64,000 bases of DNA from Spironucleus salmonicida (lineage: Eukaryota). The DNA is taken from positions 1-64,000 of the forward strand of contig NC_090603.1 of NCBI RefSeq assembly GCF_000497125.1, written 5' to 3'. The position numbers were made by a program, and so were the translations under genes. The notes under the pieces were generated by a model. It was given only the letters and a program-made list of their open reading frames with translations, did no database searches and was not told where the DNA came from. This document shows positions 33,205-64,000 of the stretch, one piece after another. How positions within the stretch are numbered: position 1 is the first letter of the stretch; every line of letters begins with the position of its first letter.

Positions 33205-33889
33205 CAAATTCGTATCGTAAATCTCTTCTCCACATAAATGCATTTTCAATATAAAGTGTATATTATATAATGATAGTATTAATTTAATTGAATAATATAT
33301 TAATGATATTAGATTCATTCTGTTATTTTCCTTCTTACTTGTAGTTATGATTTATGATATTAAATAATTAGTTTTATATAATATTATACTTTATTTGTTA
33401 TTTATCGTATAAATTATTTAATAGAGTTGAATTCATATCTTCTAACTTATAATTATGACATCATTATTTTATTACAAATAGAAGTTATTAATTTTTGCTG
33501 TGAACAATCTTTGATATTGTATGAAGAGGGTTAAGAAAATATTAATATATATAATATGTTAATATATTTTTTACATAATTTTAAATAAAATTGCCTACTA
33601 TTATAACTATTTGCAGATAACTGAAATCTTTAAATTACTGAGTACCTTTCAAAAGATTTTCTATTTTTTACATTAAGCTATCTTTATATGTGATATTAAA
33701 GTAATTAATTATTGTCTTATGCATTACATTTTATAGTTAGAGGTATTTATTATTATAATAATTAAATGACTAGTTTTTAGTTTTTGGGCCAATTTTAATA
33801 TGTAAGTTATAGTTTTAGTTATAATATTTAAAAACAGCGAAATAATGTTTTGCTGATTAACTAATATAATATTTATCATAATCTTCAAA

Positions 33890-34516
33890 ATGGCTGAGCA
33901 TAATAGCAATAAGCAAGTAAATAACGCAGATACCAAGTGTATTAGACATACCGACTGTTCTAGTTAAAAGAAAGGATATTGTGATGGAAATACCCTAACG
34001 TGCAAACTATGCTAGAAGAATTGTTTTGTCTGTTAATCCACAGCTTCGTGCAATTCCTGTGATTCTGCTACCTACGTAACAACAATAACAGGTGAATGCA
34101 CCCCAATTTGTCCTGGTCTCCAATATAATTAATTTTGTGAGAATGGAAAACCTAAAGCTTGCACAGAAGGAGTCACCTCGCCTTGCAAATGTGGAGTAAG
34201 TAGTAACTGTGGGACCTGCACAGATGGTGTTATGCCAACATGTGCTACTTGTCTAATAGGCATGCAGATGGACGATGCTGGCCGCTGTATGGATTGTGCT
34301 GAAGGATATAAAAAATTTGTCGGAAGGTGCTGGCCTAATTAACCAGAGGATCCAAATATCCCAGCTCCACCGGTTGCTCCGGTGGACCCCGAGGCCCCGG
34401 CCAGCAACAAGCTAGGTGGTGGGGCAGTGACCGGAATTGTCATCGGTGTGATTCTTGTCGTTGGCGCCGTTGCTGGCGGTCTTGCTTATTATTTTATCAA
34501 GAGGGGTAAGAAGTGA
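33890..34516 (+). CDS. Cysteine-rich membrane protein 1 (CRMP1, VSP-like), copy A, 208 aa
   Basis: [10 protein letters not shown]... CXXC-rich, Pro-rich stalk, [31 protein letters not shown], tail KRGKK, stop in AAGTGA. Confidence 0.93.
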
Positions 34517-34766
34517 TATATATTATATATTAATGCATAATAATTTTTGAATTTGAGATGACAGAATTCAATTTGAATAATAATATAAAATACTATTTAA
34601 CGTATATAATAATAGATCTAAGTAAAACCTACAAAAATAAAAATAAAATTACCTAATTATAACGCAAAATGAACAAAAGCTTCTATTTCGATAATTTTAT
34701 TCAGTTGCTACACATTGACTGTTCTTCGACACAATATCACTCACACCAAAACTATTCCAATGTAAT

Positions 34767-36806
34767 TCAGTAATTATGCTCACTTTAATCTCTCATTTAC
34801 GGACTACTTGCCCTTATTTTAAGTGCCTACCCCTACGTTACCTCACCTGAAACCAATCCCTCGATATTTTTCTTATTCTTTTTAACCTTTTTTACAACAA
34901 AAATTCCAACTCCAATGCTCAGCATGATAATAACCAAAACAGCCACTACGATCCCCACTGTTTTTCCAACACTTTTGTTGCTACACCCAGAAAGCTCCTA
35001 ATTCTCGCTACAGACCTTGCAGACCCCATTAACCGCCATCGCTCCGTTAACGCAAACACTGCACTAATTCGAGTCATACTCCTTGCAGTTATCTACTATC
35101 TTCCCTTAAAAAGCACACGCCTCTCCAAGTTTTAACTTTGAGCAGCTGATGCATTTCCCGTCCTGTAAAAACATTCCATCGGCGCACATCTAGCAGGCAT
35201 CACCTACGCATTTTATGCAATTTTTGATAGTTTTGGACCCGCACTAGCAGGATACATCCATTGGCTGACCAGTTTTGCAGGTTTCACATTTAGTTTAGAA
35301 CAAAAACTTGCCCGACTCGCACGCTGTGCAAGCTTTAGCATCTGAGCGGCATGTAGAGCAGGTTTTATCACATTTTCTACAAAACCTAGTAGCATCAGGA
35401 TCCGATGTCGGACAAAACTCGTTAGGCTTGCACTCTGCATCATCACGGCAGGGGTCTTTCTTACAGTCTCCATTAATTGACGAGTAACCCTTTATGCAGG
35501 TCCTGCATGTGTTATTGTCGCACTGCGCACAGTTGGTTTTTTTCGTGTTGCCGCACTGGCAACTTGAGCCAATTGGCATTGATTTGGAGCAGTATTGGCA
35601 GGTATTTTATGCTGTAATAAAATATGAATTTTCGCACACCAAACACGAGCCCCTCATGTTGGCCTAAAGACAGTTTTGAGACAACTGTGAACAATTGTTT
35701 TGAGCATTGATGTAAAAACCAGAAGCGCACTTTAAGCATCTACCTGTAGGATGGGCCAAAAGACAGTTTTCAGATAATTTTGCGCAACCATGTTTTTCCG
35801 TTAAATAGTTCCCTGAAAAGCACTTAGTGCATTTGTTCGATTATTCGGTACACGTTTCACATGATTTATCACATTTGGTACACTAATTAAAAATGTTAGT
35901 ATGGGACTGACAGTATTCCCCACTGATGCATTAAGTATCTATCGTACACTCGTTGTAAAGACATTATCCTTTGACTGTGGCTTAATCGTGGATGCAGCGA
36001 AAACAGCCAGTTGTAGAACATCTGCTACAATTAGCAATTAATTTGCCTGCACAATGGCATTCGCTACGGCTTGGCATATCATTATTGCAAGGCTTACATG
36101 TACCGTCCTCTGCAGTATAATAACCTTCGTTACAGAGAGAACAATAGTCAGCACGGATACATTTCTGACAATTATCCATGCATCCGTAACATTATCCCGA
36201 TCTATATTTATTATCATCACAATATTAACCCTCTAAACAATCGTTCTACTTGGTGCAAGTAGGTTTACATGCCTAATTCACTAGAATGTAATTTTTAGCA
36301 CAGGTCTAACAATCATTATTATAACACTATGCGCACCCTTCTTGCATTGTATAACGACATACACATCGGGAACCTCTTGGCATATCCTTCGAGCAGCTGA
36401 GGCATTTATTGTCAGCTGATAAATAGTAATCAGAAGGGCACTAAATACATTCTGTAGCAGAAATGCAACTCTCGCATGGCGAAATGCATTTTTTACAAGA
36501 GCCATTCTCAAGGTAATATCCCCCATCACACAAAGTACATTCAGTGGATGAATCACAGTAGTAACAATTGTCGCTACACTTTTCACATTTATCACCATTA
36601 ATATAATAGTTTTATATGCAATCTTCACACTTATCCCCGTTACATTCCTTGCAGGAAGGTTGAAGAGTGTTATTGCATTTACACTTTGCATTACTAGGCA
36701 TATCGAACCTGCATTCCAAACAGTATTAGGAAAAGTATCCCACATTCGGTGGACAGTAATACCCATTGGAGCAGTCATTCTTGCCGGACCAGCATGTACC
36801 GCTCAT
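34767..36806 (-). CDS. Cysteine-rich membrane protein (CRMP2-like), copy A, ~679 aa
   Basis: MSGTCWSGKNDCSNGYYCPP... repeated CXC/CXXC modules; supplied fragments 35982-36179 and 35295-35579 are in frame; TM TVGIVVAVLVIIMLSIGVGIFVV followed by KKVKKNKK and a short tail. Confidence 0.9.
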
Positions 36807-39462
36807 TTTGTGATAGGTAAAATTAGATTTAATTGAAAGTTATAGGATAATATGAATGTTAGAAAATTTTAATTATATTAATATCGGATGAAATCCTGTA
36901 TTAAATATGATTAAAAACTGAGTACATCGCCTCAGAATGCTAGTTTTTTAATAGTTTTTTAATAATGAAGTGTGTAGATGCAATAGAATAATAATTATAT
37001 TGGTTATTTATGTTTGGCTGATTAATAATCTTATTAAATGACAGTTAAGTAGTTATTTATTATAGTGTATTAATTCGTATATAGAAACTGATCCTCTCTA
37101 AAATTCATAATAATAAATATAAATGAATAGTAAAAACTAAATTAGTTATATACAATGATTAGTCTTAGCTAAATATAATATATTAAAAAAAATTAATATA
37201 CCTATATGTTATAAGCTCTTAATATATGAGTTATTTATAATTCTATTTATAGCAGCACATATTAAAACTTTATATTTGGTTATTAAATACATCCATATAA
37301 ATCTATTTTAATATTACTAATAATATCCTATTTGTAACTTATTATTTGATTTAATTTTATACCCATTTTATAACTATTAACAACTAATCCATTCAAATAA
37401 TATTATAATAATAAATATGATAAATAAATCTGAATCTGCTAACTTTTATAATTCATACTATGTTTTCTTGTATTAATAGCAGTTTGCTAATATTAATTGT
37501 GAATAAATTAATATAGATGATTTTAATAATACATTACAATAATGTTATCAACGAAAATAATGTAGTGTGACTTACTAAATAATAACCAATATCTAGAGAA
37601 TATTAAAGATGATTATAATTTTATATATTAATTATTATATAATAAATATAATCTAATTTAAATAGTAACGAGATTACTAAATTAAAAAATATTAATATGA
37701 ATCTATTAACACATTGCATCTGACTAACTATTAATTAAACATAATAAAAATATCATGAACTAGTTTATTTTTTTGGCATTAATAATTTCTTTATTATGTA
37801 TATCACCCTTTTATTAAATATATTGAACCTTGCTACCTCTTAGTGACGTTAATATGCATTATGCACGTTTATAATAATCATTTTTTATAATAATAAAATA
37901 CTCATATTTAGTGAAATTTATCTCTTAATAATTATATGGCTACAGCTTATTTCGCATGGAAATAGAAAAAGAGACAATATCATCAGACTTTAATTATCCA
38001 AACACTTATATTTTCTGTTAATATTCTCGAAAAATATTCCTTCTAGAATCCCTTGTTGCAATTGATTGAAAGTGCAATATTAAACTAACAATTACCAAAT
38101 ATCTGATATGCTACTGATAAATTACTCTATATAGTACTTAAGCTACCATAGTTGTAGATAATAAACTTCCATAAATCTATAACCATTGTATCGTGATTCT
38201 ATTAAAGCTTTCAGTATTATGATGCTCGCATAGTATTTATAATAAATATGAAAAAATAATATGCATCGTATTTAAACAATGTAAGATATCTTCAAATCTA
38301 GTCATCCTCTTGATTATGATATATTAGTACAAACTTTTGCAGTATTCACGGTAAGTATCTAGTTTAGTAAACTAGTGTCGTATTTATTTAAGTATATAAA
38401 TAGGGACAGAAATGAGTTCCATCCCAAGATATCAATATACCGATACCAAATTATATTCATGCAGATTGTATTAGGTTACCAAATTCTACGCTCACGTTTA
38501 TTTTCAAACTTTCAGACAAATTTTGCATTTACTCTATTTTTATACATACATATTTTACTTTATTAAAACTAATATTTTTCTCTTTCATTTTAAAATTAAT
38601 TATTAATATTATATATTTACCATAAATTTCACAAAAATATGAAATCTGACCTTCGCGAAATGAGGTCCGACCCAACTCTACAAAACTAAACAAACTACAA
38701 CTTTAAGTTATTCGATATCCATAATAACTATCACTATCACCCCTCACATCCATGATTCATCAAATCTTCCTTACCAAACTTTGTCCCAAGAATCCAAAAT
38801 GCAATTCCTGTAATAATTACCAGATGTATATCTCGTTTTGTATCATAAATTATTAGATTCATGTTGTACAAATATGATCTGCTTACTGATAGATCGTATA
38901 ATAAGGCATATAAGTCGTACTGAAAACCGCCAATTTCAGAGTCATGATAATTAAGGGCTGGAATTGGTAGATCTTTTGTTTTGGTAACAATTGCTTATTA
39001 ATAAATCAGGATTTGTAGTCAATTGAATTTTTATATATGGTACATCTTATTTTCATAAATTTACGTTATTATTGTCTAATTTATATAGAGTATAGGTTTT
39101 GGCATATTATTGACAACTAAAATAAGTTTACTTAATTCATCTCGAATATAATAGTATCCTGTATAGTCTAGCAAATCATACTGAAAATATTTATTTGCTT
39201 AATAGTAAATATACATTTAAAATATGACTTGTAAGAATACTAAAATGTATATAAGTGTTAAGTTCCTAGTAATTGGCTTGTTAACCTAGCTGCTAACATT
39301 TAAATGCCATATATGTGTTCATAATAATTTTTATAATTATTATATTTCTTACTGAACCTTATTTCTGTGCTATTTCATTATTATAAATAATAAGATACTA
39401 ATTCTAAAAATAACTTACGCATTTCTGTTGTTAATATAATACCTATTTTTCCATTTCAGTAT

Positions 39463-40433
39463 ATGACAGGAACCTGCTCTGCTTCAGCTAATAACTGTGC
39501 TAATTCAAATTATTGTCCTCTGCAACCCCAAACCGATACCCCATGTATCTCTTGCTCGGATAACTAGCATTTTGAGACATCATGTAAATGCACCATGAGT
39601 AAAAATCAAATACTCAATTGTGCATCTTGCGATGGTGAAAAATGTGCATCATGTATTAATTCTTTTTCTTAAGCGGCGAGTCATGTAAGTTCTGCAAGGA
39701 AACTTGTTTAAAATGTATTAGCAAGGACATATGTCAAAGATGCGTGTCTGGTATGTATGATGCATTAATAATGTGTACAACATGTAATAAAAATATTCCA
39801 ATCGATAGCAAATGTCAGTGCGGAACTAACTTAATTGCGAATTGTGCTTAATGCGACTTTGATGATTGTATAAAATGCAGTAATAACTACAAATTGGTAA
39901 ATGGTGTTTGTTTGCCAGATCAATGTTAAACTGACTCATAGTGCTCCAATTTATAATTTTGTGACATTAGTACTACATAAATCAACGTTTGCAAATAATG
40001 CTCCAAAATCTGTAAAACATGTTCAAATATTGAAACATCATGTACATCTTGCAATATTGACTAATTTTTATATAATAATGCATGCAGTCCTTGTAATACA
40101 GCTGCGATTGTTGGTTTCCAATGCTATTGTTAAAATATGGTGATTGAAAACTGTTCTAAATGCGGAGCAGTAGGTTGGTAGTCTTGCTTAATGCCTCGTA
40201 GATTAATAGATGGAGAGTGTATCAACGGTTTAATATCACCAGAAGACTGCTAAATAGTTGTATCTACTAATATTATTATATATATCGTAGTAGGAGTAAT
40301 ATCAGCATCAATTTTGGTTATTGGAATAGTAATTATAACCTTAGTTATGAAAAGACGTAAATTAAGGTCACTTTTGGAAATGAACATTGATGCATTAGGA
40401 AAGAAAAATAATTCAAGTACATTGTTGTTTTGA
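39463..40433 (+). pseudogene. Cysteine-rich membrane protein with a single -1 frameshift, copy A
   Basis: MTGTCSASANNCANSNYCP...CASCINSF then a frame change in the T-run at ~39663-39670 to LSGESCKFCKETCLKC...; TM IIIYIVVGVISASILVIGIVIITLVM-KRRK; span 971 nt = 3n+2. Confidence 0.82.
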
Positions 40434-42135
40434 ACATTAAGCTATGTGCGCATAATTGATTTAATAAAACTAAAGAGAAATAAATATGAAATGTGAATAT
40501 AAGGTTTTGGATAAAAATGATTTAAGTATAATCAAACAGGCCAAGGTAATAACTTAAATATTTATAATTACGTTATTTTGTAATAATACTTAGATAATAA
40601 TAGTTATTAGTTTATGCAAAATCTAAGTCTTCTTATTTTATAGCTAATAACAGTTACTAAGAAAGTGAAATATTTTTTATTATATAACTTAAGTTACAAA
40701 TAAATGATTAAACATCAATAAATAAGATTAGCTTCCTAAGGCAAGCACTCTACAGAATTAAATATATTTAATTATTATTTACTAAATCGTGGAAATTAGA
40801 TTTAGTATATATTTTTATTCTTATGTAAAACTATTATCATGGCTAACTAATAATTTCTAAATATATTATTCAAATCTAACTTAGTGAAATAATTATTGTA
40901 TCATAATCAATTTACCAGCATGAATCTTATTAACCGTAAATTTTACATAGCAGAATCTGCAATTGATGTATTTTATTAGCAGGAATGTGATAATATTTTA
41001 TTATCATTATTACTAACTATAAGATATCTCTTTCTTAAATTTAATATTTTTAATCGATTAAACAGTGAAGTAAAATGACAATAGTTTTATAATTCTGACG
41101 CTAGTAGTGTACATTTAAGAATTATGGAAATTATACAATTTATATATTATATCCGACTATATTATATTTTCTATATAAATTGTGATTATATTTATTACTA
41201 AAATTATATCTTAATAGTTATATAAAAGATAAAACAATATGTTGAATTTACTCCGGATTTTAACAAATTATGATTAAATTATATGTAAACCTATAAATAT
41301 ATAAAATGATATAAATTTATTATTTTAAACTTTAGTTTAATAAATATATTCCAAGAATAACATATATAAAATAAAAACACTACTGATTAACAATATCAGA
41401 ACATAATTTAAAAATAAGATGATATGACGAGTATGGATCATTGGTGATACTACAAAAATGATTTTAAACGCAAAGTTTAATAAAGATGTAACTAGTAATA
41501 TAATTCTATTAATTACATTCGAGTAATGCGGTATAACAGTATCGTTAGCTTTATGTTAAAGGTTAAAACTGTAAAAATATTTCTCAAAAAAACTAAATAA
41601 TTTATCCACACTTTTACTATAGATTATCCAGATACTGTACCTAGCATTAAATTTAAGTAAAAATATGATACTCTACTAATAATTAACATGATACCATTGA
41701 AAAAAAATAACAAATTTAGTAGTAATTCACCATTACACATCTCATAAACAATCCATTATTAGTTTCGGCAAGATATCATAATAGTATCATTAGCATTCGC
41801 GAACAATAAAATCATGGCACATTGTCAAAGCTCAAATTGGCTGTTCTACACCCTATTTAATTATAATTTACTGCTCCATCTTTGTTTCGCACCTATTTTA
41901 ACGCTATATCCCTATATTACTATTTTAATGTATTCTCAAAAACAGATTTTTTTACTAATCATCAGTTTTCCAATACCATTTAATCAATTTACCCATCATC
42001 TCAAAATTAATTTCAGCATTTCAGTCTAAACCATCTATCTAGTATTGGCGCATATCTGTGCTATTTCACTCCCAACATACTACACGCATTATTCATCTTT
42101 CCTGATAACCCTTATTTCCACTATTATTTCTCGCT

Positions 42136-45570: not shown

Positions 45571-45898
45571 GTGTTTGAAGCAGGATTTCGAAATTGCTTC
45601 TATGGACTCAACAAAACTTAAAATTTGCCGGGCTAGTAGTCTAGTGATATTTCGTATTCGTAAGTCACTTATATTACATTACATATGTAAATAACTAGTT
45701 ATTACATATTTTCACTTTCTTTGGACGTACCAATCCGTAGTTTGTATTTTAGAGTACAAAAAATCGTGATATTTTGCTAATACAGTGGAAATACATAAAC
45801 ATTCCCTTCCGATTTTTGAAAGAATGAACAATTCATATGTTTGCAAAATATGACATGTACGACCTCTGCGACATAAAAAATTACAAAATAATGGTGGA

Positions 45899-52250: not shown

Positions 52251-53238
52251 TTAAACCAGCTTATAAATTTTTGGTCAAGAGGTTGACACAGTATATTCAT
52301 GTTTATCTTTAAAATGTTGTATTTCATTATATAATATATTATACCGCAAATATAATCAAAGCTAAGATCGTAACGCTTTTGCAGGCTCTTAGCTTATCAC
52401 CAGGGTCTTTTGCTAATTCATGACTTAGCGTATTTAGTATAAAATTGTGATATAGCACTACTAGCTACTCAGTCACTGAGGTAGCTCAACTTCTAATATT
52501 TTTATTTTAGGAATATCTTGAGGCGCCTCCAAATATTTTGACTTGCTCAAAGTAGACAGTCGCCAAGATGCAGCACTAAAATCTATGCTGATAAATTCTT
52601 CAGGCGTTCGCTAGAACAGCTTACGAGGAAAACCGAAATATTTTAACTCTTCCTAGAGTTTAATATATCACTGCAGATTTAGTACTTACATGATATACCT
52701 ATGTACTTATCTACATATGTAAATTTCTTAAACCAGGCAACTACCAGTAAATCCTTACTCTAAATCGTTCCTACCTCAGCTCTACGCCGCAATTACCTTT
52801 TATTGTCAAATGCTAAAATTACCACAAGGCCCACAAACCTCCCAAAGATAACCAGCACCGAAGCCGCAATGCCAGAAACACGACCCACACCAAGCTAATT
52901 ACATCCACCTTAATAAACCCGTATAACCTTACTATAGCCCTCCTAGCGCAACCTGCACCTCCCATTCGCATCCCTCCCCACATACGGCAAACACGATCCG
53001 AAACTTCAGCAGACCCTCCTGCAGGCCTTAGTGGAAAGCGCGGTTTTCTATATTGAACATGGAGCATAAATTTCACCTCGAACTGCGATTTTCGCTGCAT
53101 TCGCAAAGCCCTATGGCAGTTCCAGCAGGCCGCTGTTCAAAAATGCGTCAAAACGGAAATCGTGAAATCGATTTTAGCTATCGCGCTATTCTGCTAGAAG
53201 GGCCTAGCTTTGCAGTGAAATGTGCGGTATGGGTAGGC

Positions 53239-55362
53239 ACGGCTTCTGCTTCTACGCTGGAAAGAACGTGGTTTGCGCGAACTTCTGGCGTTGCGATAAG
53301 CTGCAGCATTAGTGTAGAAATAGCAAAGGCAGTTTTCTGAGTTTCGGTGTATCATGTATTTAGCAAGTTAACGACTCCTGCGGGTCAGATTGGGATGGAA
53401 ATATTTACTGCTTCGAGTGTGGTAATTTGCAGCAGTCGTTTAAGTGCTAGCAGGGCTCAGTTCAGTTCAAGTTTGGGGGTGCTTGCAAGCAGCACGCGAG
53501 CAATTTCGCCGATTCATGCGCGCTTGAGGGTGTGAATAAAGTATGCGCAGACGGAAATTGCAGGAAGTTTGACAAGCTAAAAAATATGTGCGTGGAGTGC
53601 GATAGCACGTTGGTGAACATTAAGGGAAATTGTGGTGTTCTGACGGTTCCATAGAATGGGCAGCCGCGGGCCGGTGCATTGCGTCAGTATAGCGTTTCTG
53701 GTGCGATTAGTGCGATGAAGGATGGAGTGGAAATGTGTGCGATTAGTGCGCGAAAGGCTACATGCCGTGCAAATGCACGAGTGGGCTATTTGCGCTCTGC
53801 TGCTGCAAAGTCGGGCTAGGGCTGAACGGCGTGTGCTATAGCAATGAGGCTGGCTGTGCAATTTGCGTTTCTTGCAGCTCTAGGCACCAACTTAGTAATT
53901 AAGAATGCGTTAAAATTGGTCTGACCAAGCAGTAGGTACTTAGTTTTTTTGTTCCTGCTTCACTAGTATTACTAGTTTTACTTGCTTTAATGTTAATTGT
54001 ATTTTTAATTGGGAAGGAAAAGCGAAAATGTTTATAGATTTTTGTAAAAAAGCTGGTTAAGCGCCTCGGAATTCACCTTATATTCGTCATACTATCATAA
54101 ATTTTAGCTGTCATAGTAGCTATATAGGATGTCTACATAGATGATTTTTCATGCAAACAGCGGTTAGCATATTCTCGATGCTGCCATTTGCCTTGCTATT
54201 CTTGTTTTTAGCGCCTCCAGTATACAAGAGGTACTTTTTTAACATGGTGTCTCATTTTTATTTGTTTATTCTGGCAGCCGCTATCTAGGTATTGTTTAAT
54301 GCTGTTTAGTACCTAGCTGTAACAGATATTGTCTAAGACTTTGGAGAACAGATCTATAAACTAGCAGGTCCCCAAATAACGCTATTATTGTGCATATTTC
54401 TCGCAAGATTCAGATTCAAACCCCAACAGAAGCTAGCCCTGTTCATAGGCTTAGGGCTTCCGCTAGCAACATAAATATATTATACGATCTAGGATTCTAT
54501 GGCAGCTGGGTACTTTACTGGATCCTCGGCAGGAAATGCTATCATAGGCCAAGCTATGGTTCTTCTAGCTATAATATTAAGCGGTACGTAATTTTATGTA
54601 TTTGATTTGATTCTCGGACGATATGGCGAGGTGGGCGCTATTTACAGAATTTCGCTTTCGTCTTTCTGCATTAATCCAGTCGTTGGATTGTTATACCCTG
54701 GTGAAATATTAAATGCGATTCTTTAGTATGACATATTTTTCTCCAGCTTGCTCACCTAAATGTTATTTAACGTGGTCAATATTATAGTAATGATGCGAAT
54801 ATCGGCAGTTGAGTTTTCGATAAACCTAATCTCATCAGCAATTTGGGCACAGTTTATAGCAGCGGTAGGGGATTATTATTATTCGTAAAATAATAACTAC
54901 CTCAGTACACCCATTCATGTTATTCTCCAAACTTTTGCTTTAGTTATTGTTTTTGTTAGTTTAACCTACTTTAATATCAGAAGCTCTTACTGGTATCATA
55001 GAAAGAATGTGAGGTAAGCAAAAGAGCTAGAAACTGAGGTCAGTGGAGTTATGCCCTTCATTAAAACCGCAATACTGAAGAAAAAGGATCGATCATAGAC
55101 GGAATCTGACTAATTTAATGATAACGTGGAAAGCTCCACATCCTAGATGAGACGAAACATAATGAATCTCGATGGAAATTTGCCAAGAAAAGGTACAGGG
55201 AAACCATTTCTTATCAGCAAAAACAACGTATTAGATAGCAATGAACTTTTTGGAACAAAATAATATAAATCTCAACAAAATTCACAGAAATTGTTTACTG
55301 GTATAGATTCCAAGCTTTAGCTGGCTTCCTTTGAGATACGATCGCCAAATCCTGTGGAGTGA
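53239..55362 (+). pseudogene. 5'-truncated, frameshifted copy of the Cys-rich/DMT-like fusion gene
   Basis: Matches 31079-33204 but lacks the first ~800 bp and has indels (extra A at ~53580, missing T at ~54148). Confidence 0.85.
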
Positions 55363-56051
55363 CAAATTCGTATCGTAAATCTCTTATCCACATAAATGCA
55401 TTTTTAATATAAAGTGTATATTATATAATGTTAGTATTAATTTAATTGAATAATATATTAATGATATTAAATTCATTTTGTTAATTTCCCTTCTTACTTG
55501 TAGTTATGATTTATGATATTAAATAATTAGTTTTATATAATATTATACTTTATTTGCTATTCATCGTATAAATTATTTAATAGAGTTGAATTCATATCTT
55601 CTAACTTATAATTATGACATCATTATTTTATTACAAATAGAAGTTATTAATTTTTGCTGTGAACAATCTTTGATATTGTATGAAAAGTGTTAAGAAAATA
55701 TTAAAAAATATATAATATGTTAATATATTTTTTACATAATTTTAAATAAAATTGCCTACTATTATAACTATTTGCAGATAACTGAAATCTTTAAATTACT
55801 GAGTACCTTTCAAAAGATTTTCTATTTTTTACATTAAGTTATCTTTATATGTGATATTGTTGTAATTAATTATTGTCTTATACATTACATTTTATAATTA
55901 AATGTATTTATTAATATAATAATTAAGTGACTAGTTTTTAGTTTTTGGACCAATTTTAATATTTAAGTTAAACATACTTTATAAAATTAAGAAAAACAGC
56001 GAAATAATGTTTTGCTGATTAACTAATATAATATTTATCATAATCTTTAAA

Positions 56052-56678
56052 ATGGCCGAACATAATAATAACAATAAGCAAGTTAACAATGCAGAAACCA
56101 AGTGTACAAGACATACCGACTGCTCACACGCAAATAAAGGTTATTGCGATAAAAATAGCAAAACGTGTAAACCATGCTAAGCAAACTGCATTGCATGCTA
56201 ATCCGCAGATTTGTGCAATTCCTGTGAGCCTACTACTCACGTAACCACAATAGCAGGCGAATGCACTCCAAAATGTGTGTCTCTCAAAAATAACGAATTT
56301 TGCGACAATGGAACCGCTAAATCATGTACAAAAGATGCTACTTCACCTTGCCACTGTACGGATAATCTAAACTGTGGTACTTGTGAGGACAGCATTATGC
56401 CAAAATGCGCTACATGTTTAACAGGAATGAAATTGGATGAGAACTCGCGTTGTGCGGATTGTATGGACGGGTATATAAAAATTACAGCAAGATGCTGGCT
56501 AGTTGGAACAGACCCAAATATCCCAGTTAATCCCATGGATCCAGTGGACCCCGAAGTCCCTACTAGCAACAAGCTAGGTGGTGGGGCAATTACCGGGATT
56601 GTGGTCGGGGCGGTTGTCGTCGTGGGCGCCGTTGCTGGCGGTCTTGCTTATTATTTTATCAAGAGGGGTAAAAAGTGA
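56052..56678 (+). CDS. Cysteine-rich membrane protein 1 (CRMP1), copy B, 208 aa
   Basis: MAEHNNNNKQVNNAETKCTRHTDC... in frame with supplied ORF 56211-56678; TM plus KRGKK; AAGTGA stop. Confidence 0.93.
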
Positions 56679-56928
56679 TATATATTATATATGAATTTAT
56701 AATATTTTTTGAATTTCCAATGTAAGAATTCAATTTGAATAATAATATAAAATACTATTTAACGTATATAATAATAGATCTAAGTAAAACCTACAAAAAT
56801 AAAAATAAAATTACCTAATTATAACGCAAAATGAATAAAAGCTTCAATTTCGATAATTTTATTCAGTTGCTACACATTGACTGTTCTTCGCCACAATATC
56901 ACTCACACCAAAACTATTCCAATGTAAT

Positions 56929-58968
56929 TCAGTAATTATGCTCACTTTAATCTCTCATTTACGGACTACTTGCCCTTATTTTAAGTGCCTACCCCTACGT
57001 TACCTCACCTGAAACCAATCCCTCGATATTTTTCTTATTCTTTTTAACCTTTTTTACAACAAAAATTCCAACTCCAATGCTCAGCATGATAATAACCAAA
57101 ACAGCCACTACAATCCCCACTGTTTTTCCAACACTTTTGTTGCTACACCCAGAAAGCTCCTAATTCTCGCTACAGACCTTGCAGACCCCATTAACCGCCA
57201 TCGCTCCGTTAACGCAAACACTGCACTAATTCGAGTCATACTCCTTGCAGTTATCTACCATCTTCCCTTAAAAAGCACACGCCTCTCCAAGTTTTAACTT
57301 TGAGCAGCTGATGCATTTCCCGTCCTGTAAAAACATTCCATCGGCGCACATCTAGCAGGCATCACCTACGCATTTTATGCAATTTTTGATAGTTTTGGAC
57401 CCGCACTAGCAGGATACATCCATTGGCTGACCAGTTTTGCAGGTTTCACATTTAGTTTAGAACAAAAACTTGCCCGACTCGCACGCTGTGCAAGCTTTAG
57501 CATCTGAGCGGCATGTAGAGCAGGTTTTATCACATTTTCTACAAAACCTAGTAGCATCAGGATCCGATGTCGGACAAAACTCGTTAGGCTTGCACTCTGC
57601 ATCATCACGGCAGGGGTCTTTCTTACAGTCTCCATTAATTGACGAGTAACCCTTTATGCAGGTCCTGCATGTGTTATTGTCGCACTGCGCACAGTTGGTT
57701 TTTTTCGTGTTGCCGCACTGGCAACTTGAGCCAATTGGCATTGATTTGGAGCAGTATTGGCAGGTATTTTATGCTGTAATAAAATATGAATTTTCGCACA
57801 CCAAACACGAGCCCCTCATGTTGGCCTAAAGACAGTTTTGAGACAACTGTGAACAATTGTTTTGAGCATTGATGTAAAAACCAGAAGCGCACTTTAAGCA
57901 TCTACCTGTAGGATGGGCCAAAAGACAGTTTTCAGATAATTTTGCGCAACCATGTTTTTCCGTTAAATAGTTCCCTGAAAAGCACTTAGTGCATTTGTTC
58001 GATTATTCGGTACACGTTTCACATGATTTATCACATTTGGTACACTAATTAAAAATGTTAGTATGGGACTGACAGTATTCCCCACTGATGCATTAAGTAT
58101 CTATCGTACACTCGTTGTAAAGACATTATCCTTTGACTGTGGCTTAATCGTGGATGCAGCGAAAACAGCCAGTTGTAGAACATCTGCTACAATTAGCAAT
58201 TAATTTGCCTGCACAATGGCATTCGCTACGGCTTGGCATATCATTATTGCAAGGCTTACATGTACCGTCCTCTGCAGTATAATAACCTTCGTTACAGAGA
58301 GAACAATAGTCAGCACGGATACATTTCTGACAATTATCCATGCATCCGTAACATTATCCCGATCTATATTTATTATCATCACAATATTAACCCTCTAAAC
58401 AATCGTTCTACTTGGTGCAAGTAGGTTTACATGCCTAATTCACTAGAATGTAATTTTTAGCACAGGTCTAACAATCATTATTATAACACTATGCGCACCC
58501 TTCTTGCATTGTATAACGACATACACATCGGGAACCTCTTGGCATATCCTTCGAGCAGCTGAGGCATTTATTGTCAGCTGATAAATAGTAACCAGAAGGG
58601 CACTAAACACATTCTGTAGCAGAAATGCAACTCTCGCATGGCGAAATGCATTTTTTACAAGAGCCATTTTCAAGGTAATATCCTCCATCACACAAAGTAC
58701 ATTCAGTGGGTGAATCACAGTAGTAACAATTGTCGCTACACTTTTCACATTTATCACCATTAATATAATAGTTTTATATGCAATCTTCACACTTATCCCC
58801 GTTACATTCCTTGCAGGAAGGTTGAAGAGTGTTATTGCATTTACACTTTGCATTACTAGGCATAGAGAAGTTGCATTCCAAACAGTCTTAGTATCTCCAT
58901 CCAACATCTACTGGACAGTAATATCCATTGGAGCACTCATTCTTGCCGGACCAGCATGTACCGCTCAT
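56929..58968 (-). CDS. Cysteine-rich membrane protein (CRMP2-like), copy B, ~679 aa
   Basis: Same length and near-identical to 34767-36806 except for an N-terminal patch. Confidence 0.9.
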
Positions 58969-61625
58969 TTTGTGATAGGTAAAATTAGATTTAATTGAAA
59001 GTTATAGGATAATATGAATGTTAGAAAATTTTAATTATATTAATATCGGATGAAATCCTGTATTAAATATGATTAAAAACTGAGTACATCGCCTCAGAAT
59101 GCTAGTTTTTTAATAGTTTTTTAATAATGAAGTGTGTAGATGCAATAGAATAATAATTATATTGGTTATTTATGTTTGGCTGATTAATAATCTTATTAAA
59201 TGACAGTTAAGTAGTTATTTATTATAGTGTATTAATTCGTATATAGAAACTGATCCTCTCTAAAATTCATAATAATAAATATAAATGAATAGTAAAAACT
59301 AAATTAGTTATATACAATGATTAGTCTTAGCTAAATATAATATATTAAAAAAAATTAATATACCTATATGTTATAAGCTCTTAATATATGAGTTATTTAT
59401 AATTCTATTTATAGCAGCACATATTAAAACTTTATATTTGGTTATTAAATACATCCATATAAATCTATTTTAATATTACTAATAATATCCTATTTGTAAC
59501 TTATTATTTGATTTAATTTTATACCCATTTTATAACTATTAACAACTAATCCATTCAAATAATATTATAATAATAAATATGATAAATAAATCTGAATCTG
59601 CTAACTTTTATAATTCATACTATGTTTTCTTGTATTAATAGCAGTTTGCTAATATTAATTGTGAATAAATTAATATAGATGATTTTAATAATACATTACA
59701 ATAATGTTATCAACGAAAATAATGTAGTGTGACTTACTAAATAATAACCAATATCTAGAGAATATTAAAGATGATTATAATTTTATATATTAATTATTAT
59801 ATAATAAATATAATCTAATTTAAATAGTAACGAGATTACTAAATTAAAAAATATTAATATGAATCTATTAACACATTGCATCTGACTAACTATTAATTAA
59901 ACATAATAAAAATATCATGAACTAGTTTATTTTTTTGGCATTAATAATTTCTTTATTATGTATATCACCCTTTTATTAAATATATTGAACCTTGCTACCT
60001 CTTAGTGACGTTAATATGCATTATGCACGTTTATAATAATCATTTTTTATAATAATAAAATACTCATATTTATTGAAATTTATCTCTTAATAATTATATG
60101 GCTACAGCTTATTTCGCATGGAAATAGAAAAAGAGACAATATCATCAGACTTTAATTATCCAAACACTTATATTTTCTGTTAATATTCTCGAAAAATATT
60201 CCATATAGAATCCCTTGTTGCAATTGATTGAAAGTACAATATTAAACTAACAATTACCAAATATCTGATATGCTACGGATAAATTACTCTATATAGTACT
60301 TAAGCTACCATAGTTGTAGATAATAAACTTCCATAAATCTATAACCATTGTATCGTGATTCTATTAAAGCTTTCAGTATTATAATGCTCGCATAGTATTT
60401 ATAATAAATATGAAAAAATAATATGCATCGTATTTAAACAATGTAAGATATCTTCAAATCTAGTCATCCTCTTGATTATGATATATTAGTACAAACTTTT
60501 GCAGTATTCACGGTAAGTATCTAGTTTAGTAAACTAGTGTCGTATTTATTTAAGTATATAAATAGGGACAGAAATGAGTTCCATCCCAAGATATCAATAT
60601 ACCGATACCAAATTATATTCATGCAGATTGTATTAGGTTACCAAATTCTACGCTCACGTTTATTTTCAAACTTTCAGACAAATTTTGCATTTACTCTATT
60701 TTTATACATACATATTTTACTTTATTAAAACTAATATTTTTCTCTTTCATTTTAAAATTAATTATTAATATTATATATTTAACCATAAATTTCACAAAAA
60801 TATGAAATCTGACCTTCGCGAAATGAGGTCCGACCCAACTCTACAAAACTAAACAAACTACAACTTTAAGTTATTCGATATCCATAATAACTATCACTAT
60901 CACCCCTCACATCCATGATTCATCAAATCTTCCTTACCAAACTTTGTCCCAAGAATCCAAAATACAATTCATGGGATAATTACCAGATGTATATCACATT
61001 TTGTATCATAAATTATTAGATTCATGTTGTACAAATATGATCTGCTTACTGATAGATCGTATAATAAGGCATATAAGTCGTACTGAAAACCGCCAGTTTC
61101 AGAGTCATGATAATTAAGGGCTGGAATTGGTAGATCTTTTGTTTTGGTAACAATTGCTTATTAATAAATCAGGATTTGTAGTCAATTGAATTTTTATATA
61201 TGGTACATCTTATTTTCATAAATTTACGTTATTATTGTCTAATTTATATAGAGTAGAGGTTTTGGCATATTATTGACAACTAAAATAAGTTTACTTAATT
61301 CACCTCGAAGATAATAGTATCCTGTATAGTCTAGCAAATCATACTGAAAATATTTGTTTGCTTAATAGTAAATATACATTTAAAATATGACTTGTAAGAA
61401 TACTAAAATGTATATAAATGTTAAGTTCCTAGTAATTGGCTTGTTAACCTAGCTGCTAACATTTAAATGCCATATATGTGTTCATAATAATTTTTATAAT
61501 TATTATATTTCTTACTGAACCTTATTTCTGTGCTATTTCATTATTATAAATAATAAGATACTAATTCTAAAAATAACTTACGCATTTCTGTTGTTAATAT
61601 AATACCTATTTTTCCATTTCAGTAT

Positions 61626-62596
61626 ATGACAGGAACCTGCTCTGCTTCAGCTAATAACTGTGCTAATTCAAATTATTGTCCTCTGCAGCCCCAAACCGAT
61701 ACCCCATGTATCCCGTGCTCCGAAAACTAGCCTTTTGAAACATCATGTAAATGCTCCATGAGTAAAAATCCAATACTCAATTATGCATCTTGCGATGGTG
61801 AAAATTGTGCATCATGTATTAATTCTTTTTCCTAAGCGGCGAGTCATGTAAGTTCTGCAAGGAAAATTGTTTAAAATGTATTAGCAAGGACATATGTCAA
61901 AGATGCGTGTCTGGTATGTATGATGCATTAACAATGTGTACAACGTGTAATAAAAATATTCCAATCAATAGCAAATGTCAGTGCGGAACTAAATTAATTG
62001 CGAATTGTGCTTAATGCGACTTTGAGGATTGTATAGAATGTCGTAATAACTACAAATTGGTAAATGGTGTTTGTTTGCCAGATCAATGTTAAACTGACTC
62101 ATAGTGCTCCAATTTATAATTTTGTGACATTAGTACTACATAAATCAATGTTTGCAAATAGTGCTCCAAAATCTGTAAAACATGTTCAAATATTGAAACA
62201 TCATGTACATCTTGCAATATTGACTAATTTTTATATAATAATGCATGCAGTCCTTGTAATACAGCTGCGATTGTTGGTTTCCAATGCTATTGTTAAAATA
62301 TGGTGATTGAAAACTGTTCTAAATGCGGAGCAGTAGGTTGGTAGTCTTGCTTAATGCCTCGTAGATTAATAGATGGAGAGTGTATCAACGGTTTAATATC
62401 ACCAGAAGACTGCTAAATAGTTGTATCTACTAATATTATTATATATATCGTCGTAGGAGTAATATCAGCATTAATTTTGGTTATTGGAATAGTACTTATA
62501 ACCTTAGTTATGAAAAGACGTAAATTAAGGTCACTTTTGGAAATGAACATTGATGCATTAGGAAAGAAAAATAATTCAAGTACATTGTTGTTTTGA
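61626..62596 (+). pseudogene. Cysteine-rich membrane protein with a -1 frameshift, copy B
   Basis: Duplicate of 39463-40433; same 971-nt span and the same frame break at ~61826-61833. Confidence 0.82.
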
Positions 62597-64000
62597 ACAT
62601 TAAGCTATGTGCGCATAATTGATTTAATAAAACTAAAGAGAAATAAATATGAAATGTGAATATAAGGTTTTGGATAAAAATGATTTAAGTATAATCAAAC
62701 AGGCCAAGGTAATAACTTAAATATTTATAATTACGTTATTTTGTAATAATACTTAGATAATAATAGTTATTAGTTTATGCAAAATCTAAGTCTTCTTATT
62801 TTATAGCTAATAACAGTTACTAAGAAAGTGAAATATTTTTTATTATATAACTTAAGTTACAAATAAATGATTAAACATCAATAAATAAGATTAGCTTCCT
62901 AAGGCAAGCACTCTACAGAATTAAATATATTTAATTATTATTTACTAAATCGTGGAAATTAGATTTAGTATATATTTTTATTCTTATGTAAAACTATTAT
63001 CATGGCTAACTAATAATTTCTAAATATATTATTCAAATCTAACTTAGTGAAATAATTATTGTATCATAATCAATTTACCAGCATGAATCTTATTAACCGT
63101 AAATTTTACATAGCAGAATCTGCAATTGATGTATTTTATTAGCAGGAATGTGATAATATTTTATTATCATTATTACTAACTATAAGATATCTCTTTCTTA
63201 AATTTAATATTTTTAATCGATTAAACAGTGAAGTAAAATGACAATAGTTTTATAATTCTGACGCTAGTAGTGTACATTTAAGAATTATGGAAATTATACA
63301 ATTTATATATTGTGTCCGAGTATATTATATTTTCTATATAAATTGTGATTATATTTATTACTAAAATTATATCTTAATAGTTATATAAAAGATAAAACAA
63401 TATGTTGAATTTACTCCGGATTTTAACAAATTATGATTAAATTATATGTAAACCTATAAATATATAAAATGATATAAATTTATTATTTTAAACTTTAGTT
63501 TAATAAATATATTCCAAGAATAACATATATAAAATAAAAACACTACTGATTAACAATATCAGAACATAATTTAAAAATAAGATGATATGACGAGTATGGA
63601 TCATTGGTGATACTACAAAAATGATTTTAAACGCAAAGTTTAATAAAGATGTAACTAGTAATATAATTCTATTAATTACATTCGAGTAATGCGGTATAAC
63701 AGTATCGTTAGCTTTATGTTAAAGGTTAAAACTGTAAAAATATTTCTCAAAAAAACTAAATAATTTATCCACACTTTTACTATAGATTATCCAGATACTG
63801 TACCTAGCATTAAATTTAAGTAAAAATATGATACTCTACTAATAATTAACATGATACCATTGAAAAAAAATAACAAATTTAGTAGTAATTCACCATTACA
63901 CATCTCATAAACAATCCATTATTAGTTTCGGCAAGATATCATAATAGTATCATTAGCATTCGCGAACAATAAAATCATGGCACATTGTCAAAGCTCAAAT

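What the first reader, a model, noticed from the sequence alone, without database searches (positions are those of the whole stretch)
55850..56720. CRMP1 cassette swapped inside an otherwise near-identical duplication
Seen: the kilobases flanking both CRMP1 loci, including AT-rich non-coding DNA, are almost identical, yet the two 208-aa proteins differ throughout the ectodomain ([26 protein letters not shown] vs CSHANKGYCDKNSKTCKPCQANCIAC) while keeping the Cys spacing and the [16 protein letters not shown] end. Divergence starts ~190 bp upstream of the ATG and ends just after the stop. Inference: gene conversion from another family member into a fixed locus, a recombinational route to antigenic variation unlike the epigenetic/RNAi VSP switching described in Giardia.
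Basis: partly seen in the sequence, partly recalled or inferred. Interest (0 to 1): 0.78.

Follow-up and report, generated by a model that had tools for sequence, protein, structure and literature searches.

The report
Swapped surface-protein gene in duplicated block
Two almost identical copies of a chromosome-end segment in the salmon parasite Spironucleus salmonicida carry very different versions of one small cysteine-rich surface-protein gene, most likely because recombination with other family members overwrote it; this is a known way of diversifying such families, seen here unusually cleanly.

Summary
Under genetic code 6, two 208-aa CRMP1 genes (A 33890-34516, B 56052-56678) lie in a duplication of at least 10.8 kb (31079-41837 vs 53239-64000), 31-56 kb from a (TAGG)n telomere. 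The flanks differ by 0.5-1.6%. An 885-bp tract (A 33678-34562 / B 55839-56724) differs by 21.7% and holds 200 of the 367 differing columns (P=5e-115). Synonymous divergence is near saturation (dS 0.81, dN/dS 0.28), so selection on a young duplicate is excluded.

A third syntenic copy, C, lies on another chromosome (KAH0575822-824). It makes the trees incongruent: flanks group (A,B),C, while the cassette groups (B,C),A. A's nearest relatives (P0003, P0011; 82% and 76%) sit in other genomic contexts. The best reading is ectopic gene conversion among CRMP1 paralogs. Copy A, not the flagged copy B, is probably the one that was overwritten.

No near-identical donor was found among annotated proteins, so flank homogenisation around an old divergent island remains a serious rival. 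Independent 2014 short-read contigs hold both cassettes. RNA-like contigs hold B, C and A-like sequence together. Nothing supports programmed switching, and antigenic variation is unproven in this species. This is a clean example of a known kind of repertoire evolution.

The parts
3..2542 (.). Telomeric array (CCTA)n = (TAGG)n, 633.5 copies. It places the whole region at a chromosome end.
   Evidence: the repeat unit matches the published S. salmonicida telomere (PMC9509377, passage)
31079..41837 (+). Duplicated block, copy A (proximal to the telomere)
53239..64000 (+). Duplicated block, copy B. It runs off the window end, so its true length is unknown.
33678..34562 (+). Divergent tract in copy A (alpha-type cassette). 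Probably the replaced copy.
   Evidence: polarity
55839..56724 (+). Divergent tract in copy B (beta-type cassette). This is the flagged locus.
33890..34516 (+). CRMP1-A, 208 aa, with 5 in-frame TAA/TAG=Q codons
56052..56678 (+). CRMP1-B, 208 aa, with 2 in-frame TAA/TAG=Q codons. Contigs exactly matching it occur in DNA runs and in RNA-like runs.
55992..56047 (+). 56-bp island of perfect A/B identity just upstream of the ATG (A 33830-33885). Candidate conserved promoter/5' element or homology anchor.
   Evidence: P=0.00015; core found only at these 2 places in the window
56625..56671 (+). 47-bp island of perfect identity encoding the end of the TM segment and the KRGKK tail (A 34463-34509). Candidate 3' homology anchor.
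   Evidence: 0 of 20,000 permutations; C-terminal dS 0.35 vs 1.05 in the ectodomain
55733..55758 (+). Upstream copy of a 26-nt imperfect direct repeat that brackets the cassette (A 33572-33597)
56792..56817 (+). Downstream copy of the 26-nt direct repeat (A 34630-34655), 21/26 identical to the upstream copy
56929..58968 (-). Flanking 679-aa CRMP1 (A copy 34767-36806). A third copy, KAH0575823.1, lies on another chromosome next to the beta-like small CRMP1.
58865..58936 (-). Second micro-patch of divergence (A 36703-36774), 18 differences in 72 bp, in the N-terminus of the 679-aa gene. B equals copy C here and A is the odd one out.
61814..62596 (+). Flanking CRMP2, 260 aa (A copy 39642-40433, 263 aa). 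A third copy, KAH0575824.1, shows that block C is syntenic over three genes.
53220..55362 (+). Copy B remnant of the upstream Cys-rich/multi-TM gene. It is 5'-truncated at the duplication edge and split over three frames. Copy A has an intact 857-aa ORF at 30631-33204.

Best explanation
The locus is one copy of a subtelomeric block of cysteine-rich membrane protein genes in Spironucleus salmonicida. The block occurs twice on this chromosome (A and B) and once on another chromosome (C). Within the block, a unit of about 885 bp belongs to two old sub-lineages of the family: alpha in A, and beta in B and C. This unit is the 208-aa CRMP1 gene plus about 210 bp upstream and about 45 bp downstream. 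Everything around it is about 99% identical between A and B. The most likely mechanism is ectopic (interlocus) gene conversion or an equivalent double recombination. A diverged CRMP1 paralog overwrote the resident gene, with the exchange resolved in sequences the family shares: the upstream region on one side and the conserved TM/KRGKK-tail end on the other. Polarity from copy C indicates that A was overwritten by an alpha-type sequence and that the flagged copy B kept the block's original beta type. Smaller patches in the neighbouring Cys-rich genes look like further short conversion tracts. The outcome is diversification of the CRMP1 repertoire on an evolutionary time scale, not a demonstrated switching device. 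Shown: the duplication, the tract, the synonymous saturation, the third syntenic copy, the tree incongruence, both cassettes in independent read data, and B-identical contigs in RNA-like runs. Inferred: conversion as the mechanism, its direction, and the homology anchors.
For: (1) The tract is sharply bounded: 21.7% divergence against 0.47-1.58% in the flanks, P=4.8e-115. (2) dS=0.81 (pS 0.50) and dN/dS=0.28, with the non-coding 5' part also diverged, so the two genes are old paralogs in young or homogenised surroundings. (3) Each cassette has a closer relative elsewhere than its block partner: A-P0003 82% and A-P0011 76%; B-C (P0010) 82%; A-B 61%. At DNA level, a C-like contig differs from B at 43 of 363 positions, where A differs from B at 114 of 366 columns. 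(4) Block C is syntenic. KAH0575822, 575823 and 575824 are the small CRMP1, the 679-aa CRMP1 and the 263-aa CRMP2. (5) The trees are incongruent. Flanking proteins give A=B at 19+25 variable sites. B=C occurs at 11+6 sites that fall in tight patches. A=C occurs at 2+6 sites. The cassette groups B with C. (6) Alpha-type relatives lie outside the block context: the best non-block homolog of the 679-aa flank is only 28% identical (5 hits among 396 candidates). (7) Other family loci share an alignable upstream region: a paralog contig aligns at 55760-55918 with 24 differences. Perfectly identical islands of 56 and 47 bp lie within the tract near its two ends. Both give plausible anchors for homologous exchange. 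(8) The 2014 short-read contigs, independent of the long-read assembly, contain the B cassette exactly (439 nt, 0 differences), a 213-nt exact contig crossing the 5' tract edge, and A-type continuations. (9) The genome paper reports that 19.2% of the genome lies in duplicates of at least 95% identity and itself suggests gene conversion around CRMPs (PMC9509377, passages).
Against: No near-identical donor was found. The closest annotated protein to A is 82% identical. The closest to B in the current assembly is 82%; a 96% relative exists only in the 2014 assembly and looks like a B/C chimera. If the conversion post-dated a duplication only 1% old, a donor of at least 98% identity would be expected unless it is lost, a pseudogene, unannotated, or in an assembly gap. 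The B and C cassettes are also much more divergent (about 12% nt) than the B and C flanks, so one event cannot explain everything. The clustering of A-like sites in mosaic copy C is only marginal (runs test P=0.062). The whole genome was not available, so no nucleotide-level donor search could be made. The short contigs do not link cassette-specific sequence to copy-specific flank SNPs.
Confidence: 0.6

Rival explanations
1. Old divergent island, homogenised flanks. The block copies and their alpha and beta cassettes are old. The flanks are kept about 99% alike by repeated homogenising conversion between block copies (concerted evolution). That conversion cannot cross the 22%-divergent cassette because of heteroduplex rejection, or diversity there is kept by selection. 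On this reading the flanks were converted, not the cassette.
For: No near-identical donor exists for either cassette among annotated proteins. The cassette is also the most divergent part in the B-C comparison: 82% aa and about 88% nt, against 19 C-private differences in 679 aa of the flanking gene. Flank divergence is uneven (0.47% to 1.58%), with several patches. Duplicated regions are abundant and GC-enriched in this genome (PMC9509377, passage), which would fit frequent conversion.
Against: It needs at least two independent homogenising tracts that stop at both edges of one 885-bp unit. An alpha-type gene still has to have entered a block whose other two copies carry beta type, because alpha relatives lie in other contexts. 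So an ectopic exchange is still required at some earlier time. The left edge of the duplication is abrupt and truncates a gene, as expected of a discrete duplication event.
Confidence: 0.25
2. Assembly or haplotype artefact. The two cassettes are alleles, or belong to other loci, and were stitched into collapsed near-identical flanks by the long-read assembler.
For: The flanks are repeats that short reads cannot bridge. The 2014 proteins EST48478 and EST48479 look like B/C chimeras (clustering P=0.0004), which shows that this region has misled an assembler before. At 55148 and 55311, every laid contig shows a letter different from the window.
Against: Both cassette sequences occur in independent 2014 short-read contigs. 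Cassette-specific contigs have k-mer depth 9-14, against 25-32 for shared flank contigs. This fits single-copy cassettes in multi-copy flanks, but is only a hint. Adjacency of a beta-type small CRMP1 to the 679-aa gene is seen three times independently: B, C, and the 2014 assembly. A and B lie 22 kb apart in one contig with unrelated spacer DNA. The published assembly was checked against optical maps (PMC9509377, passages).
Confidence: 0.05
3. In-situ rapid divergence. After a recent duplication one copy diverged through diversifying selection or targeted hypermutation of the gene.
For: The differences spare all 22 cysteines and the TM/tail, as expected for a selected surface protein.
Against: Synonymous sites are near saturation (dS 0.81; 1.05 in the ectodomain) and dN/dS is 0.28. 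Non-coding upstream DNA has diverged too. Ts:Tv is 97:94, with no mutational signature. A is much closer to P0003 on another chromosome than to B.
Confidence: 0.03

Closest known systems
Recombination / segmental gene conversion among Giardia vsp genes (Adam et al. 2010, PMC2996952, passages read; G. muris genome, PMC7641422, passages read)
   Same: Both are diplomonad families of Cys-rich (CXXC) type-I membrane proteins with a conserved TM and short basic tail. Both show evidence that segments move between paralogs. In both, the conserved 3' end contrasts with a variable ectodomain, and the genes lie in arrays or duplicated pairs.
   Different: The Giardia evidence is statistical (GENECONV/DualBrothers on clades). 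Here a whole-gene tract is delimited to the base inside a 99%-identical duplication, with a third syntenic copy giving polarity. CRMP1 is not a Pfam VSP member (below the cut-off). It has a KRGKK tail rather than CRGKA. The organism lacks RNAi components (PMC3916229, passage).
Generic suggestion of gene conversion around S. salmonicida CRMP genes (Xu et al. 2022, PMC9509377, passages read)
   Same: Same organism, same gene family, and the same class of duplicated, GC-richer regions with more sequence variation.
   Different: The paper offers one sentence of suggestion based on SNP and GC patterns. In the passages read, no tract, donor lineage, polarity or syntenic third copy is described. Supplementary files and figures were not seen.
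Duplicative cassette replacement in programmed antigenic variation (trypanosome VSG mosaic formation, Pneumocystis MSG; PMC13233330 seen as a search listing only; otherwise from general knowledge)
   Same: Subtelomeric location, replacement of a surface-protein gene within constant flanks, mosaic family members, and short repeats bracketing the unit.
   Different: There is no expression site, no silent archive and no somatic variants. Several family members appear together in RNA-like contigs. The divergence pattern indicates rare evolutionary events.

Membership tests
CRMP-1 (S. salmonicida cysteine-rich membrane protein 1, as defined in PMC3916229) | Three or more CXXC/CXC motifs | tested here: met
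   6 CXXC + 1 CXC and 22 Cys in A and B, and in the 4 relatives counted (C, P0003, P0011, P0004)
CRMP-1 (S. salmonicida cysteine-rich membrane protein 1, as defined in PMC3916229) | C-terminal transmembrane domain | tested here: met
   Kyte-Doolittle 19-residue maximum of 2.48 (A) and 2.36 (B) at aa 180-198. This is a hydropathy calculation only; no dedicated TM predictor was run.
CRMP-1 (S. salmonicida cysteine-rich membrane protein 1, as defined in PMC3916229) | C-terminal [KR][KR]X[KR][KR] motif | tested here: met
   Both end in KRGKK. Database sources name the relatives 'Cysteine-rich membrane protein 1'.
Giardia VSP (Pfam PF03302) | Score at or above Pfam's gathering cut-off (31.4 bits) | tested here: not met
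   23.0 bits (B) and 17.2 bits (A). For B only the TM/tail (aa 175-207) matched.
Giardia VSP (Pfam PF03302) | CRGKA cytoplasmic tail | tested here: not met
   The tail is KRGKK. The CRGKA signature is as stated in PMC3916229 (passage).
Ectopic (interlocus) gene conversion tract | Discrete tract of high divergence inside otherwise near-identical duplicates, with synonymous divergence far above flank divergence | tested here: met
   21.7% against 0.47-1.58%; dS 0.81
Ectopic (interlocus) gene conversion tract | Phylogenetic incongruence between tract and flanks | tested here: met
   Flanks group (A,B),C at 44 sites. The cassette groups (B,C),A: 82% against 61% and 67%. This is protein-level only for C.
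Ectopic (interlocus) gene conversion tract | An identifiable donor nearly identical to the tract | tested here: inconclusive
   The best relatives are 82% identical. Only annotated proteins of 114-364 aa were searched, and the whole genome was not available.
Programmed antigenic-variation cassette system (VSG/MSG-like) | Mutually exclusive expression from a dedicated expression site | tested here: inconclusive
   RNA-like contigs of bulk cultures hold exact B, C-like, A-like and P0004-like sequences together. Bulk data cannot show per-cell exclusivity, and the runs are only guessed to be RNA.
Programmed antigenic-variation cassette system (VSG/MSG-like) | Somatic variants (alternative cassettes at one locus within a population) | not testable with these tools
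   Only Logan contigs were available.
Programmed antigenic-variation cassette system (VSG/MSG-like) | Conserved recombination repeats at cassette boundaries, shared by donor loci | tested here: inconclusive
   A 26-nt direct repeat brackets the cassette. Its 15-nt core occurs 4 times in the window against 0.20 expected, but these are only 2 independent sites. In the one paralog contig seen, the stretch that holds the upstream repeat is replaced by unlike sequence.

The most novel reading that the evidence does not exclude
The small-CRMP1 position in this block is a dedicated, repeat-bracketed recombination slot. The conserved 56-bp 5' island, the conserved 3' TM/tail island and the flanking 26-nt direct repeats would act as landing pads. 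Through them, different family members would be copied into a transcribed subtelomeric site at an appreciable somatic rate. This would give S. salmonicida, which lacks RNAi, a VSG/MSG-like duplicative route to surface variation.
Probability: 0.06. Interest if true: 0.85.

Novelty: new member of a known kind. Interest (0 to 1): 0.4.

Why it matters
How S. salmonicida regulates and diversifies its roughly 400 cysteine-rich membrane proteins is unknown, and the species lacks the RNAi machinery implicated in Giardia (PMC3916229, passage). This locus gives a base-resolved, polarisable example of whole-gene exchange between CRMP1 sub-lineages. The exchange sits inside a block present in three syntenic copies, with additional micro-patches in neighbouring Cys-rich genes. 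That turns the published general suggestion of gene conversion into a concrete test case for three things. First, tract lengths and boundaries. Second, whether exchange runs between chromosomes. Third, with long reads from clones, whether any of it happens on a somatic time scale. It does not by itself show antigenic variation.

Tried and rejected
The homologous-protein searches covered proteins of 114-364 aa (small CRMP1) and 373-1189 aa (flank) only.

(2) tblastn of both proteins against the window found no other family member here.

(3) Exact look-up failed for 6 of 8 candidate flanking ORFs, including all five ORFs tried for the upstream multi-TM gene. This is probably because the annotated starts differ or the genes are annotated as pseudogenes. 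So the upstream extent of block C is not established from proteins. A 95.6%-alike contig over 55000-55386 (17 differences in 387) may be it.

(4) Earlier scan notes: none exist for this genome.

(5) RNA: no listed holder is on record as RNA. X5 and X6 are guessed RNA. Parts of the stretch without RNA-like cover (55548-55958, 56781-56917) are noted but not used as evidence. Contig depths were not used to rank genes.

(6) The short-read contigs do not bridge from copy-specific flank SNPs into the cassette. The shared 131-bp identical stretch breaks them. So they cannot by themselves exclude a chimera.

(7) The mosaic test on copy C was only marginal (P=0.062).

(8) Ts:Tv did not discriminate tract (97:94) from flanks (53:40).

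(9) Inverted-repeat and other direct-repeat hits around the cassette are AT-rich, low-identity matches and were disregarded.

(10) Selection-only and hypermutation readings were rejected on dS.

(11) One paper reading failed on a malformed term and was repeated correctly.

(12) Supplementary tables of the genome and expression papers (CRMP lists, per-gene expression) were not consulted. They may already list these genes or their expression.
Full report
**What the window is.** The window begins with 633.5 copies of CCTA at 3-2542. This is the complement of the (TAGG)n telomere published for Spironucleus salmonicida (PMC9509377, passages read). Database sources name the encoded proteins as S. 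salmonicida 'Cysteine-rich membrane protein 1'. The ORFs are open only under code 6 (TAA/TAG=Q). Under the standard code the flagged gene is cut to 93 aa. The region is therefore subtelomeric, with the two CRMP1 genes about 34 and 56 kb from the chromosome end.

BLASTN of the window against itself gives one long alignment, 31079-41837 vs 53239-64000, at 96.7% over 10,779 columns. Copy B runs off the window end. A global alignment has 10,768 columns, 352 mismatches and 15 gap columns. Divergence by region:

| Region (A coordinates) | Divergence |
|---|---|
| Left edge 31079-31400 | 15.5% |
| Upstream flank 31401-33677 | 1.58% |
| Tract 33678-34562 (B 55839-56724) | 21.7% |
| Next 2.1 kb, 34563-36670 | 0.47% |
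| Patch 36671-36770 | 17% |
| Remaining 5 kb, 36771-41837 | 0.95% |

- The tract holds 200 of the 367 differing columns in 8.3% of the alignment (P=4.8e-115).
- It starts 213 bp upstream of the ATG (dense from 193 bp upstream) and ends 46 bp after the stop.
- Within the tract, two islands are perfectly identical. One is 56 bp immediately upstream of the ATG. The other is 47 bp encoding the end of the TM segment and the KRGKK tail.
- Both islands are longer than expected by permutation (P=0.00015, and 0 of 20,000).

**Selection on a young duplicate is excluded.** The proteins are 136/209 identical.
- Nei-Gojobori counts under code 6 give pS 0.50, dS 0.81, dN 0.23 and dN/dS 0.28.
- In the ectodomain dS is 1.05. 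In the TM/tail part it is 0.35.
- The non-coding 5' part of the tract has also diverged.
- Ts:Tv is 97:94 in the tract and 53:40 in the flanks.
- These are old paralogs sitting in young, or homogenised, surroundings.

**Relatives elsewhere.** No whole genome was available, so I used the protein collection. B returned 6 hits at E<=1e-5 among 465 candidates, and A returned 6 among 139.

| Protein | Accession | Length | Location | Type |
|---|---|---|---|---|
| P0003 | KAH0575791 | 219 aa | 1.88-Mb contig | alpha-like |
| P0011 | KAH0575802 | 219 aa | 1.88-Mb contig | alpha-like |
| P0010 | KAH0575822 | 207 aa | 1.88-Mb contig | beta-like |
| P0004 | two accessions, one sequence | 225 aa | 1.73-Mb contig | ~60% identical to both A and B |
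| P0001 | EST48478 | 208 aa | 2014 assembly only | 96% identical to B |

(Accessions and locations.)

Pairwise identities, with gaps counted as mismatches:

| Pair | Identity |
|---|---|
| A-P0003 | 82% |
| A-P0011 | 76% |
| B-P0010 | 82% |
| A-B | 61% |
| A-P0010 | 67% |

- So there are two sub-lineages: alpha (A, P0003, P0011) and beta (B, P0010, P0001).
- All 22 cysteines are invariant.
- No annotated protein is nearly identical to either cassette.

**A third syntenic block gives polarity.**
- The 679-aa CRMP1 that converges on the cassette (B 56929-58968, minus strand) belongs to a 90% cluster of four sequences: A, B, the 2014 protein EST48479, and KAH0575823.1 on the 1.88-Mb contig. The last is accession-adjacent to the beta-like P0010.
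- The next best homolog of this flank is only 28% identical. So the alpha-type genes P0003 and P0011 do not have this neighbour.
- The next gene downstream, a 263-aa CRMP2, also has a third copy, KAH0575824.1.
- Block C is therefore syntenic over three consecutive genes.

| Flanking protein | A=B sites | B=C sites | A=C sites |
|---|---|---|---|
| 679-aa CRMP1 | 19 | 11 (aa 11-35, 121, 126, 570) | 2 |
| 263-aa CRMP2 | 25 | 6 (aa 43-80) | 6 (3 of them the start-codon offset) |

- The flanks say (A,B),C. The sites where A is the odd one out come mostly in tight patches.
- The cassette is the largest such patch. Parsimony therefore makes the block's original cassette beta-like and makes A, not the flagged B, the overwritten copy.
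- The alternative is that an outside sequence entered C and was then copied from C into B. That needs two events per patch.

**Read-level evidence.** Four runs of this organism were laid as Logan contigs on 55000-59100 at 80% likeness or better. Two are DNA runs from 2014 (X1, X3) and two are RNA-like runs from 2019 (X5, X6).
- DNA contigs reproduce the B cassette exactly: 439 nt at 56216-56654 with 0 differences in both DNA runs. A differs from B at 124 of 442 columns in that interval.
- One exact 213-nt contig crosses the 5' edge of the tract (55809-56021).
- Loose ends carry A-type sequence.
- A 380-nt contig differs from B at 43 of 363 positions over 56164-56526. It then continues into an A-like proline-stalk sequence, exactly the mosaic seen in protein P0010. 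I read it as the cassette of copy C.
- Cassette-specific contigs have k-mer depth 9-14, against 25-32 for shared flank contigs. This fits single-copy cassettes in multi-copy flanks. The tool warns that depth is not copy number, so this is only a hint.
- A paralog contig is collinear with the upstream non-coding DNA. It aligns at 55399-55569, 55760-55918 and 56137-56242, with replaced segments between. So family members share homologous 5' regions.
- The RNA-like runs hold a contig identical to B, the C-like contig, and loose ends matching A and P0004-like sequences. Several members are present together in bulk cultures.
- The contigs cannot link cassette sequence to copy-specific flank SNPs, so they do not by themselves exclude a chimera.
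- Against the window: at 55148 and 55311, where A and B agree, every laid contig shows another letter. I could not explain this.

**Mechanism.**
- The best-supported reading (0.6) is ectopic gene conversion, or an equivalent double recombination, among CRMP1 paralogs. The exchange would be resolved in sequences the family shares: the upstream region on one side and the conserved 3' end on the other.
- Further short tracts in the neighbouring Cys-rich genes would be the same process on a smaller scale.
- The main rival (0.25) keeps conversion but reverses what was converted. In it, the cassettes are an old island, and the flanks are kept alike by homogenising exchange that cannot cross 22% divergence.
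- Two facts favour the rival. No near-identical donor was found. The B and C cassettes also differ far more than their flanks.
- Against the rival, it needs separate tracts that stop at both edges of one unit. It also still needs an earlier ectopic event to put an alpha gene into a beta-type block.
- An assembly artefact (0.05) and in-situ divergence (0.03) are unlikely for the reasons given above.

**A possible boundary signal.** A 26-nt imperfect direct repeat (21/26 identical) brackets the cassette. It lies 81 bp upstream and 68 bp downstream of the tract, in both copies. Its 15-nt core occurs 4 times in the window against 0.20 expected, and 0 of 100 shuffles reach 4. Because A and B are duplicates, these are only two independent sites. 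In the one paralog contig seen, the stretch that holds the upstream repeat is replaced by unlike sequence. I treat the repeat as unexplained.

**Comparison with what is known.**
- The proteins meet all three defining features of CRMP-1 as given in PMC3916229 (passages): 6 CXXC + 1 CXC motifs, a C-terminal hydrophobic segment, and a KRGKK tail.
- They fail Pfam's cut-off for Giardia VSP: 23.0 and 17.2 bits against 31.4.
- Recombination among Giardia vsp genes has been shown statistically (PMC2996952, passages). It is described as 'recombination or segmental gene conversion' in G. muris (PMC7641422, passages).
- My search for S. salmonicida, cysteine-rich membrane protein and gene conversion listed 10 papers with at least 2 of the 3 terms. 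Only that paper combined all three.
- I found no description of this locus in the passages read. Figures and supplements were not seen.
- Antigenic variation is not demonstrated in this species. Many Cys-rich genes are co-expressed and respond to oxygen (PMC3916229 and PMC6397501, passages).

**Verdict.**
- The feature is real and sharply defined.
- Interpretation: the recombination origin is supported. The direction is probably the reverse of what the flagged coordinates imply. The timing is open, and the link to antigenic variation is unsupported.
- Novelty: a new, unusually clean member of a known kind.
- Interest: 0.4.

Noticed in passing
window 53220-55362 (vs 30631-33204): Copy B of the upstream Cys-rich/multi-TM gene is a remnant. 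It is cut at the duplication edge (53239), split over three reading frames by two 1-bp indels, and carries Cys-to-Gly changes. Copy A has an intact 857-aa ORF. Neither gave a Pfam hit.
   Followed up: partly
window 58865-58936 / 36703-36774: There is a second micro-patch in the N-terminus of the 679-aa CRMP1: 18 differences in 72 bp and 8 amino-acid changes within aa 11-35. B and the third copy C agree here and A is unique. This looks like an independent short conversion tract into A.
   Followed up: yes
window 39768-39881 (CRMP2 aa 43-80) and protein P0022: In the 263-aa CRMP2, six clustered sites have B=C with A different. The C-terminal half of copy C differs from A and B at about 22 of 118 residues. 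Patchy divergence seems general for the Cys-rich genes of this block.
   Followed up: partly
window 55733-55758 and 56792-56817 (A: 33572-33597 and 34630-34655): A 26-nt imperfect direct repeat brackets the cassette about 70-80 bp outside both tract edges. Its core AAATAAAATTRCCTA is found nowhere else in the window. Its function is unknown (boundary signal, regulatory motif or chance).
   Followed up: partly
proteins P0001 / P0012 (2014 assembly, EST48478 / EST48479): The older assembly's versions of the small CRMP1 and its 679-aa neighbour are block-wise mixtures of copy B and copy C (36 informative sites in 6 runs, P=0.0004). They are either a collapsed-repeat consensus or a real fourth recombinant copy missing from the new assembly.
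   Followed up: partly
window 55135, 55148, 55214, 55311: At these positions copies A and B agree, yet short-read and RNA-like contigs show other letters. At 55148 and 55311 no laid contig supports the window's letter. Possible causes are a close paralog dominating the contigs, a filter hole, or residual assembly error.
   Followed up: no
protein P0004 (KAH0573108.1 and KAH0573110.1, 1.73-Mb contig): Another small CRMP1 of this subfamily exists as two identical proteins two accession numbers apart. So not every duplicated copy of this gene type has diverged, which is a useful contrast to the A/B pair.
   Followed up: no
window 8941-11968: This is an internally repetitive region, with multiple overlapping self-matches of 350-1020 bp at 88-93% identity, lying 9-12 kb from the telomere.
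   Followed up: no
window 2726-3016 / 45769-46061 and 7566-8409 / 50005-50848: There are older (82%) similarities between the long minus-strand ORFs 3320-8626 (1768 aa) and 47238-51014 (1258 aa). These may reflect an earlier, larger duplication of the chromosome end.
   Followed up: no
window 31079-31400 / 53239-53560: The left edge of the duplication is abrupt, with no homology further left even at word size 7. Yet its first 322 bp are 15.5% divergent, within a Cys-rich coding region. This may be another patch of exchange or decay in the B pseudogene.
   Followed up: partly
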